Below, in pieces: positions 27,640-28,644 of a DNA stretch of 64,000 nucleotides. The stretch is from the human T2T-CHM13v2.0 reference genome, Homo sapiens, in assembly GCF_009914755.1 (NCBI RefSeq), contig NC_060947.1. One strand, given 5' to 3'. The notes below the pieces were generated by a model that had not been told where the DNA came from, made no database searches, and saw nothing but the letters and a program-made list of their open reading frames with translations. Position numbers and translations under genes: made by a program. Numbering within the stretch: the stretch's first letter is position 1; every line of letters begins with the position of its first letter.

Positions 27640-27870
27640 ATGGGCAATATGACAGAATAGAAAGTGAATGGTCTCTGGTTCTAATTCCAGCTCTGCAACT
27701 TCTTAGATGTGTGTAGTTAAAAATCGGGCAAGTTATTTAAATTCTCATAATTATCTGAGTTTTAGTATCCTTCTCTATAAATTGGAGATAAAAATATAAA
27801 ATTGGTGGGATCGTTGTAAGAACTAACAATTCTGTATTTAAAGTGTCTGACACTTCAAAATCACTTTGCA
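27640..27870 (+). mobile_element. MIR hosting the PDCL2 retrocopy in its 3' end
   Basis: MIR core (ccagctctgc...ggcaagttatttaa...ctataaattggagataa); tail continues as ataaatggcag after 28549. Confidence 0.7.
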
Positions 27871-28535
27871 GGTGAGGGGCAGAGCAGTGCATCATGCAGG
27901 ATCCCAATGAAGATACAGAATGGAATGACATTTTAAGAGATTTCGGCATTCTTCCTCCTAAAGAAGAGTCAAAAGATGAAATTGAAGAAATGGTTTTATG
28001 TTTACAGAAAGAAGCAATGGTGAAACCATTTGAAAAGATGACTCTTGCACAGCTAAAGGAAGCTGAAGATGAATTCGATGAAGATATGCAAGCTATTGAA
28101 ACATAGAAAGAAGCGGTTACAGGAATGGAAAGCTCTTAAGAAAAAACAAAAATGTGGAGAATTAACAGAAATTTCTGGAAATCAGTAAGTGAATGAAGTC
28201 ACAAATGCAGAAAAAGACGTGTGGGTTATAATTCATCTATACAGATCAAGGGTCTCACTGTGTTTCCCAGGCTGGAATACAGTGACAATTGTATAGCTCA
28301 ATGCAGCCTTGAATGCTTGGGCTCAAGCAATGATCCTCCTGCCTCAGTCCTCCAAGTAGCTTGGACGACAGGTCTGCACCACCACATCTGGCCAGGTTTT
28401 AAAATTTTTTTGTAGAAATGGGGTATTGCTATGTCGCCCAGACCGGTCTCGAACTCCTGGCTTCAAGTGATCCTCCTGCCTCAGCCTCCCAAAGTATTGA
28501 GATTACAGGCGTGAACCACAGTGAAAAAAAAAATA
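27871..28535 (+). pseudogene. PDCL2: Processed pseudogene of phosducin-like 2 (PhLP2B): 5' UTR plus codons 1 to ~121 fused to an antisense Alu and poly(A)
   Basis: Intronless [35 protein letters not shown]...; 2-bp frameshift near 28104, then RKKRLQEWKALKKKQKCGELTEISGNQ*VNEVTNAEKDVWVIIHLYRS; A tail from 28524; TSD aaaatcactttgca (27857-27870) and ataataactttgca (28536-28549). Confidence 0.93.
28251..28523 (-). mobile_element. AluJ-like sequence carried inside the retrocopy
   Basis: ggtctcactgtgtttcccaggctgg...gattacaggcgtgaaccacagtg; lacks its own poly(T) and TSD. Confidence 0.9.
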
Positions 28536-28601
28536 ATAATAACTTTGCAATAAATGGCAGAATCAGGATTTGACAGGTTCTGTCTGTTTAACACTGCCAA
28601 G

Positions 28602-28603
<2 letters not shown>

Positions 28604-28641
<38 letters not shown>
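28604..28641. repeat. (TG)n microsatellite
   Basis: Direct reading. Confidence 0.95.

Positions 28642-28644
<3 letters not shown>

What the first reader, a model, noticed from the sequence alone, without database searches (positions are those of the whole stretch)
27857..28549. PDCL2 retrocopy preserves an isoform in which one antisense Alu forms a complete alternative last exon
Seen: intronless PDCL2 sequence stops at ...CTATACAGATCAAG (28250) and continues directly into GGTCTCACT, an antisense AluJ missing its poly(T) and GAGACAG. A single poly(A) and one TSD pair (12/14 identical) enclose both parts. Known: (T)nGAGACAG|GGTCTC is the classic cryptic 3' splice site of exonized antisense Alu right arms, and PDCL2 is testis-expressed, so it is available for germline retroposition. 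Inference: the template was a spliced mRNA joining a PDCL2 exon end (phase 2 of codon 121, which I recall but cannot verify as an exon boundary) to an intronic Alu. In frame it reads ...HLYRS-RVSLCFPGWNTVTIV-TAG (28294-28296), a PhLP2B lacking most of the thioredoxin-like domain. A stop in a terminal exon would escape NMD. The retrocopy may therefore record an unannotated or extinct germline isoform.
Basis: partly seen in the sequence, partly recalled or inferred. Interest (0 to 1): 0.8.

Follow-up and report, generated by a model that had tools for sequence, protein, structure and literature searches.

The report
Retrocopy of an Alu-terminated PDCL2 transcript
This dead X-linked copy of the testis gene PDCL2 was made from a spliced messenger RNA that ended in an Alu repeat from the gene's fourth intron, so it is a clean but ordinary example of a pseudogene fossilising an alternative transcript.

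Summary
The observation and the core inference both hold. Window 27873-28250 is PDCL2 exons 1-4, precisely spliced (parent on contig C4, minus strand). Base 28250 is the last base of exon 4, followed in the parent by gtaatt.

Window 28251-28523 is 97% identical to one antisense Alu inside PDCL2 intron 4. It lies 2,189 nt past that donor and about 4.65 kb before exon 5. The next-best Alu in the genome is 80% identical. In the parent the Alu part is preceded by a pyrimidine tract ending gatacag, so the junction is a canonical GT..AG splice.

The poly(A) is not templated at the parent locus. Together with the 12/14 target-site duplication, it encloses both parts. This excludes template switching and post-insertion deletion.

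Points added here:
- The in-frame TAG (28294-28296) is ancestral. The modern parent has since lost 2 bp there, so its tail would now be 54 residues rather than 15.
- The only poly(A)-signal-like hexamer is the rare ATTACA.
- RefSeq's PDCL2P1 span omits the Alu part.
- Divergence is 2.6%, suggesting a great-ape-age insertion.

Whether the isoform is annotated or still made could not be tested. This is a new member of a known kind, of modest interest.

The parts
27857..27870 (+). 5' target-site duplication (AAAATCACTTTGCA); the implied bottom-strand nick is TTTT/G
   Evidence: 12/14 identical to 28536-28549; 15 of 20,000 shuffles reach this.
27871..27872 (+). Two G residues not templated by the parent locus, which has ...gggctct before the first matching base. 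They may be cap-related additions at a full-length 5' end (inference).
27873..27899 (+). PDCL2 exon 1 (27 nt, includes the ATG at 27894-27896)
   Evidence: matches C4:59080244-59080270; the parent donor is CAG|gtgagg.
27900..28020 (+). PDCL2 exon 2 (121 nt)
   Evidence: C4:59070253-59070373, 98% identity.
28021..28106 (+). PDCL2 exon 3 (91 nt in the parent, 86 here). It carries a 3-bp and a 2-bp deletion; the 2-bp deletion shifts the frame and gives a TAG at 28104-28106.
28107..28250 (+). PDCL2 exon 4 (144 nt). A TAT>TAA nonsense change lies at 28186-28188. The exon ends exactly at the parent's donor AAG|gtaatt.
28251..28523 (+). Antisense Alu copied from PDCL2 intron 4 (C4:59055389-59055659) and used as the terminal exon. 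It starts exactly after the parent's ...gatacag acceptor.
   Evidence: 97% identity to the intronic Alu; next best in the genome 80%.
28294..28296 (+). TAG that closed the PDCL2 reading frame in the source mRNA, 15 codons into the Alu. The modern parent has lost it from the frame through a 2-bp deletion.
   Evidence: 24 of 25 outgroup Alus have the retrocopy's length here.
28502..28507 (+). ATTACA, the only poly(A)-signal-like hexamer in the last 60 nt; it ends 16 nt before the tail and is identical in the parent.
   Evidence: AUUACA is listed at 0.40% of annotated human signals in PMC12421377, Table 1.
28524..28535 (+). Poly(A) tail remnant (A10, then TAA repeats that run into the 3' duplication). 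It is not templated in the parent, where cctggcctgctg follows.
28536..28549 (+). 3' target-site duplication (ATAATAACTTTGCA)

Best explanation
Window 27857-28549 is one L1-mediated processed pseudogene (RefSeq PDCL2P1). Its template was a capped, spliced and polyadenylated PDCL2 transcript with the structure exon 1 - 2 - 3 - 4 - Alu exon.

In that transcript the exon 4 donor was joined to the AG that ends the pyrimidine tract in front of an old antisense Alu. This Alu lies 2,189 nt into intron 4. Transcription was then cleaved and polyadenylated at the far end of the same Alu, which made the Alu a complete alternative last exon. Exons 5 and 6, which encode most of the thioredoxin-like part of the phosducin domain, were skipped.

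The mRNA encoded residues 1-120 of PDCL2 plus 15 Alu-derived residues and a TAG. L1 endonuclease nicked the X-chromosome target at TTTT/G. The poly(A) tail primed reverse transcription, and the whole RNA was copied with a 14-bp target-site duplication.

The copy has since decayed, with one frameshift, one nonsense change and one 3-bp deletion, and is non-functional.

Shown: the anatomy, the identity of the parent, the splice-exact junction, the non-templated tail, the duplication and the ancestral state of the stop.

Inferred: germline expression at the time, use of the weak ATTACA signal, and an age of roughly 10-15 Myr. I also infer that the isoform was a low-level by-product rather than a selected product.
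For: - Exons 1-4 are joined exactly at parental GT..AG introns.
- Base 28250 equals C4:59057849, followed by gtaatt.
- 28251-28523 matches C4:59055389-59055659 at 97% in the same orientation as the gene. No other Alu in the 60-kb PDCL2 region exceeds 75% apart from short partial matches, and the next best genome-wide is 80% (40 of 6,702 candidates scored).
- The parental Alu is preceded by ctctctttttatttttgatacag.
- It lies between exon 4 and exon 5. Exon 5 was located at C4:59050538-59050738 by tblastn with paralogue ORFs, and it matches Pfam Phosducin positions 158-219 of 265.
- The tail is not templated, because the parent continues cctggcctgctg.
- The target-site duplication is 12/14; 15 of 20,000 shuffles reach this.
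- Divergence is the same in both halves, 10 of 378 exonic and 7 of 271 Alu positions, as expected if they arrived together.
- PDCL2 is described as germline-specific in the abstract of PMC9576706.
Against: - No canonical AATAAA or ATTAAA precedes the cleavage site. Only ATTACA is present, a hexamer annotated for 0.40% of human signals (PMC12421377 Table 1).
- From recall, Alu-borne poly(A) sites are overwhelmingly in sense Alus, so a 3' end at the head of an antisense Alu is atypical.
- There is no RNA evidence that the isoform exists today.
- The genome-wide Alu search scored only 40 of 6,702 candidates, so a closer Alu elsewhere is unlikely but not formally excluded.
- The name PDCL2 for the C4 locus rests on the hub's pseudogene name, the 97% identity and my recall of the gene's position.
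Confidence: 0.93

Rival explanations
1. Chimeric retrocopy by L1 reverse-transcriptase template switching. Reverse transcription began on an unrelated polyadenylated Alu-containing RNA and jumped to a PDCL2 mRNA.
For: Such chimeras are known (recalled). The junction at 28250/28251 has no intron and joins a repeat to a gene.
Against: The Alu part comes from PDCL2's own intron 4 (97% against at most 80% elsewhere). The breakpoint falls on an exon end on one side and directly after an AG acceptor on the other. The Alu is antisense, so it has no poly(A) of its own at that end.
Confidence: 0.02
2. A retrocopy of a longer RNA, either canonical or partly unspliced, in which a later genomic deletion or rearrangement brought exon 4 next to the Alu.
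For: Small deletions did occur in the copy: 3 bp and 2 bp in exon 3.
Against: The missing 2,189 nt begin with GT and end with AG exactly. No exon 5 or 6 sequence exists anywhere else in the genome, since exon 5 has only its own hit. The tail and duplication directly flank the Alu end.
Confidence: 0.02
3. Same origin, but the template was not a regular mRNA isoform. It was a rare mis-spliced RNA whose 3' end came from surveillance-type oligoadenylation or a one-off cleavage, captured by chance.
For: Only the very weak ATTACA hexamer is present. The parental Alu exon shows no sign of constraint since retroposition. It has 4 derived substitutions and a frame-changing 2-bp deletion, against 2 derived substitutions in the dead copy.
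Against: The tail is long enough to have primed L1 reverse transcription. A U/GU-rich stretch (tgctgtctcatttt) follows the cleavage site in the parent. This is the only recognisable PDCL2 retrocopy in the genome, which is easier to understand if the RNA was not vanishingly rare. From recall, testis commonly uses non-canonical signals.
Confidence: 0.3

Closest known systems
[quoted passage not shown] I saw only the title, in reference lists. The paper is not held, so its content is recalled.
   Same: An intronless, poly(A)-tailed, duplication-flanked copy preserves an exon combination that differs from the reference transcript of its parent gene.
   Different: This case preserves an Alu-derived alternative last exon and its cleavage site. 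It also allows the ancestral reading frame of that exon to be recovered. No paper in the searched library mentions PDCL2P1.
Alu exonisation through the 3' splice site at the end of the U-tract of antisense Alu right arms (Lev-Maor/Sorek/Ast work, recalled; hnRNP C/U2AF65 competition as described in PMC4666398, passages read)
   Same: The Alu is antisense. The acceptor AG closes the pyrimidine tract that is the complement of the Alu's A-tail. The exon starts GGTCTC.
   Different: Typical Alu exons are internal cassettes of about 120 nt that use a 5' splice site inside the right arm. Here a candidate donor CAG|GTCTGC at 28371/28372 was not used, and the whole dimeric Alu was retained.
Alu-derived alternative terminal exons and transcript ends (Tajnik et al., NAR 2015, PMC4666398; abstract and passages read)
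   Same: Splicing into an antisense Alu creates a new last exon and a new polyadenylation site, often tissue-specific.
   Different: That study concerns intergenic Alus downstream of the gene. This Alu is intronic, and cleavage occurs at the end of the Alu itself behind a very weak hexamer.

Membership tests
L1-mediated processed pseudogene (retrocopy) | Intronless copy of a multi-exon parent, with exon joins exactly at parental splice sites | tested here: met
   four exon-exon joins, each at a GT..AG intron of the C4 locus.
L1-mediated processed pseudogene (retrocopy) | 3' poly(A) tail not templated at the parent locus | tested here: met
   A10 plus TAA repeats from 28524; the parent continues cctggcctgctg.
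L1-mediated processed pseudogene (retrocopy) | Target-site duplication directly flanking the insert | tested here: met
   12/14; reached by 15 of 20,000 shuffles and 37 of 20,000 random 14-mers.
L1-mediated processed pseudogene (retrocopy) | Insertion at an L1 endonuclease-type site (TTTT/A-like; consensus recalled) | tested here: met
   the duplication begins AAAA after ...CTTC, so the bottom-strand nick is TTTT/G, a one-base variant.
Alu exonisation (antisense Alu, 3' splice site after the U-tract) | Alu lies antisense to the host gene inside an intron | tested here: met
   the Alu lies between exon 4 and exon 5; the SRP-like arms are on the strand opposite to the transcript.
Alu exonisation (antisense Alu, 3' splice site after the U-tract) | Exon begins right after an AG preceded by the Alu-derived pyrimidine tract | tested here: met
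   ...ctctctttttatttttgatacag|GGTCTC.
Alu exonisation (antisense Alu, 3' splice site after the U-tract) | Transcript evidence for the junction | not testable with these tools
   The retrocopy itself is the only, indirect, record. No RNA-seq, EST or chromosome 4 annotation was available.
Alternative last exon with its own polyadenylation site | Recognised poly(A) signal hexamer 10-30 nt upstream of the cleavage site | tested here: inconclusive
   only ATTACA, ending 16 nt before the tail. AUUACA is among 18 annotated hexamers, at 0.40%, and its binding was not measured.
   No Alu consensus library was available. The element is old: at most 80% identity to any scored Alu. Its two nearest relatives share the ...CAT[A/G]... 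stretch where most others have ...CTC/T.... The AluJ label is therefore plausible, but only by recall.

The most novel reading that the evidence does not exclude
The Alu-terminated transcript is a real, hominid-specific germline isoform of PDCL2 that current gene models miss. It may once have been the abundant form, since the only recognisable PDCL2 retrocopy in the genome derives from it. It would encode an N-terminal-domain-only PhLP2B. The tail was 15 residues at the time of retroposition and would be 54 in modern humans. Such a protein could modulate the chaperonin-linked role of the full-length protein in spermiogenesis.
Probability: 0.06. Interest if true: 0.55.

Novelty: new member of a known kind. 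Interest (0 to 1): 0.33.

Why it matters
The locus gives a dated, sequence-level record that a PDCL2 transcript ending in an intronic Alu existed in the ape germline.

- It corrects the extent of the annotated pseudogene. RefSeq's span stops at 28265, while the retrocopy runs to 28523 plus tail.
- It points to a precise junction (C4:59057849 to 59055659) and a 3' end (near C4:59055389) that can be looked for in testis long-read and 3'-end data.
- It shows how a retrocopy can serve as an outgroup. Here it reveals that the parental Alu exon has since lost 2 bp and changed its reading frame, which argues that the Alu-encoded tail is not under selection.

The principle has been known since the mid-2000s, so the value is that of a clean worked example, not a new mechanism.

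Tried and rejected
- Pfam Phosducin search of the whole genome. It found PDC, PDCL and intronless PDCL3-like copies but not the short PDCL2 exons. I located exons 5 and 6 instead by tblastn with ORFs of two intronless paralogues.
- Pfam on the retrocopy's own open pieces. The 70-aa and 35-aa pieces gave 0 families each, being too short or N-terminal. Only parental exon 5 matched Phosducin.
- Literature. 'PDCL2P1' gave 0 papers. 'PDCL2' plus 'Alu' gave 7 papers: five are palladium-chloride chemistry or otherwise off-topic by title, and two are versions of a CLK kinase-probe paper that I did not open. Shemesh et al. 2006 is not held. Three review or analysis papers and PMC3162935 contained no description of retrocopies that record Alu exons. 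Supplementary tables of Alu-exon catalogues were not examined and might list this exon.
- Earlier findings of this scan were not open to the session.
- MAFFT placed the 2-bp gap a few columns away from where the pairwise alignment does. This created apparent mismatches at 28287-28293. I treat these as one 2-bp indel, following and the alignment print-out.
- Dating by presence or absence in other primates was not possible, because no primate genomes are held.
- Template switching and post-insertion deletion were considered and rejected (see rival explanations).

Full report
**What is in the window**

- A 14-bp sequence (27857-27870) is followed by two G residues.
- PDCL2-like sequence then runs without introns from 27873 to 28250 and ends ...GATCAAG.
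- An Alu in antisense orientation occupies 28251-28523 and starts GGTCTCACT.
- An A-rich tail follows from 28524, and the 14-bp sequence recurs at 28536-28549 with 12 of 14 identical.
- Rfam gives two sub-threshold signal-recognition-particle RNA matches on the minus strand, at 28248-28392 and 28413-28510. This is the signature expected of the two arms of a dimeric Alu.
- A duplication this good was reached by 15 of 20,000 shuffles of the 3' flank and by 37 of 20,000 random 14-mers from the window.

**The parent gene**

The window's own genome could be searched.
- Window 27871-28250 has four matches: itself, and three exon-sized pieces on contig C4, minus strand, at 93-98% identity.
- A local BLAST against 60 kb of that region added a 28-nt match to a first exon.
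- With flanks printed, the exons are 27, 121, 91 and 144 nt. Every join in the retrocopy falls on a parental GT..AG intron.
- Exon 4 ends ...ATCAAG at C4:59057849 and is followed by gtaattacc.
- Counting from the ATG, exons 1-4 hold 120 codons plus two bases. The recalled 'phase 2 of codon 121' is therefore right.
- I call the locus PDCL2 for three reasons: RefSeq names the window copy PDCL2P1 (hub note), the identity is about 97%, and I recall the gene's location.
- Its exon 5 matches Pfam Phosducin. Its exons are 48-64% identical in protein to intronless phosducin-like paralogues.

**Where the Alu part comes from**

- In the same 60-kb region, 28249-28523 matches one Alu at 96.7% over 275 columns, at C4:59055389-59055661 and on the same strand as the gene. 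Every other near-full-length Alu there is at most 75% identical.
- Genome-wide, the best non-self match is that same Alu at 97%. The next is 80%, with 40 of 6,702 first-look candidates scored.
- tblastn with ORFs from two intronless paralogues placed exon 5 at C4:59050538-59050738 and exon 6 near C4:59044736-59044840.
- The Alu therefore sits inside intron 4, 2,189 nt past the exon 4 donor and about 4,650 nt before exon 5.
- Immediately upstream of the matching part the parent reads ctctctttttatttttgatacag.
- The sequence missing from the retrocopy thus begins GT and ends AG, and the junction at 28250/28251 is a canonical splice.

**The 3' end**

- In the parent, the last matching base is followed by cctggcctgctgtctcatttt. 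There is no A-run, so the tail in the window was added to RNA rather than copied from DNA.
- None of the common poly(A) signal hexamers occurs in the last 60 nt.
- Of 22 hexamers tested, only ATTACA is present. It lies at 28502-28507, ends 16 nt before the tail and is identical in the parent.
- AUUACA is one of 18 hexamers annotated as human poly(A) signals, at 0.40% frequency. Its affinity for the recognition complex was not measured (PMC12421377, Table 1 and Results passages).
- The U/GU-rich stretch just downstream in the parent could serve as a downstream element. This is inference.
- The cleavage site is the weakest link in the story. Its existence is shown by the non-templated tail; its efficiency is unknown.

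**Both halves arrived together**

- A global alignment of the retrocopy to the five joined parental pieces shows 17 substitutions in 649 aligned positions. That is 2.6%, with a Poisson 95% interval of 1.5-4.2%.
- The split is 10 of 378 in the exons and 7 of 271 in the Alu. Six of the 17 lie in CpG context.
- Equal divergence in both halves, one tail and one duplication fit a single insertion event.
- The retrocopy is dead. A 3-bp and a 2-bp deletion in exon 3 produce a frameshift and a TAG at 28104-28106, and a TAT>TAA change lies at 28186-28188.
- Using recalled primate divergences (human-gorilla about 1.6%, human-orangutan about 3%, human-macaque about 6.5%), 2.6% suggests an insertion roughly 10-15 million years ago. 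This could not be checked against primate genomes.

**The reading frame of the Alu exon, then and now**

- In the retrocopy, the PDCL2 frame continues from ...HLYRS into RVSLCFPGWNTVTIV and stops at TAG 28294-28296.
- The parent today is 2 bp shorter just there.
- I used 25 other near-full-length Alus as outgroups, taken from the window, the PDCL2 region and two fetched loci. Hits were dropped if they exceeded 90% identity or did not span query positions 12-262.
- 24 of the 25 have the retrocopy's length in this stretch, and one has a larger gap.
- The 2-bp loss is therefore a deletion in the parental lineage after retroposition.
- Translating the modern parental pieces gives a 174-residue product with a 54-residue Alu-encoded tail.
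- Of the 7 Alu substitutions, the retrocopy keeps the majority outgroup base at 4 (28270, 28308, 28451, 28492). The parent keeps it at 2 (28277, 28367). One (28520) is unresolved, because 18 of the 25 outgroup rows end before it.
- The parental Alu exon has thus changed at least as fast as the dead copy and has changed frame. This argues against selection on the encoded tail, though the counts are small.

**Rivals**

- Template switching by the L1 reverse transcriptase would need an independent polyadenylated RNA from the same intron, starting exactly after an AG. It would also need a jump to a PDCL2 RNA ending exactly at an exon end. Splicing explains both facts at once.
- A later deletion would have to remove exactly one GT..AG interval.
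- Exon 5 has no second copy anywhere in the genome, and exons 1-4 have only this one. No canonical-isoform retrocopy of PDCL2 is therefore recognisable.
- What remains open is whether the template was a regular minor isoform or a one-off aberrant RNA. I put about 0.3 on the latter.

**Comparison with what is known**

- Processed pseudogenes that preserve alternative splice forms were described by Shemesh et al. 2006. I saw only the title in reference lists. The paper is not held, so its content is recalled.
- Splicing into antisense Alus at the AG after the U-tract is textbook. So is its repression by hnRNP C competing with U2AF65 (PMC4666398, passages).
- Alu-derived terminal exons with new poly(A) sites are described in the same paper for intergenic Alus (abstract).
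- This locus combines the three.
- Unusually, the whole dimeric Alu was kept as the last exon, and a candidate internal donor (CAG|GTCTGC at 28371/28372) was ignored. Cleavage also occurred at the head of an antisense Alu.
- No paper in the searched library mentions PDCL2P1. None links PDCL2 with Alu: of 7 hits, five are unrelated by title and two are versions of a CLK kinase-probe paper that I did not open. Supplementary tables were not searched.
- PDCL2 is described as germline-specific and needed for spermiogenesis in mice (PMC9576706, abstract). That fits heritable retroposition.

**Annotation note**

RefSeq's PDCL2P1 span (27873..28265, hub note) stops 15 nt into the Alu part. The start of canonical exon 5 (CATCCCAATGTGTTT) matches 28251-28265 at 10 of 15 positions by my own count. 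This probably let an alignment of the canonical mRNA run on by chance. The retrocopy really extends to 28523 plus its tail.

**Verdict**

This is a new, well-resolved member of a known kind, of modest interest. The open questions are whether the isoform is still made, whether it is annotated, and exactly when the insertion happened. All three need RNA data and primate genomes that were not available here.

Noticed in passing
window 27873-28265 (RefSeq PDCL2P1 span) versus 27857-28549: The annotated pseudogene span ends 15 nt into the Alu part and omits the remaining 258 nt of the retrocopy, the tail and the duplication. The overshoot to 28265 fits a chance 10/15 match (my count) to the start of canonical exon 5.
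   Followed up: yes
window 28371/28372: A candidate 5' splice site CAG|GTCTGC lies inside the Alu right arm, and the GT is present in the parent too. It would make an internal exon of 121 nt (119 nt in the modern parent). It was not used in the RNA that was retrocopied.
   Followed up: partly
window 28604-28642: A (GT)n microsatellite of about 20 units lies about 55 nt downstream of the 3' target-site duplication. It is unrelated to the retrocopy.
   Followed up: no
window 28343-28394, minus strand: Sub-threshold Rfam match to the mir-1268 precursor family (31.5 bits against a gathering score of 83) inside the Alu. Most likely it only reflects Alu-related sequence in that family.
   Followed up: no
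L016 (G000:C8:102997400-102998800, minus strand) and L015 (G000:C6:152027700-152029300): Intronless phosducin-like copies with long uninterrupted frames: 244 residues in L016, beginning ...[14 protein letters not shown], and 199 residues in L015. They are 56-64% identical to PDCL2 exon 5. They are presumably retrocopies of the paralogue PDCL3. The open 244-residue frame may deserve a look.
   Followed up: no
window 27871-27872: Two untemplated G residues lie between the 5' duplication and the first parental base. This suggests the copy reaches the capped 5' end of the mRNA and so marks a PDCL2 transcription start at C4:59080270, only 21 nt before the ATG.
   Followed up: partly
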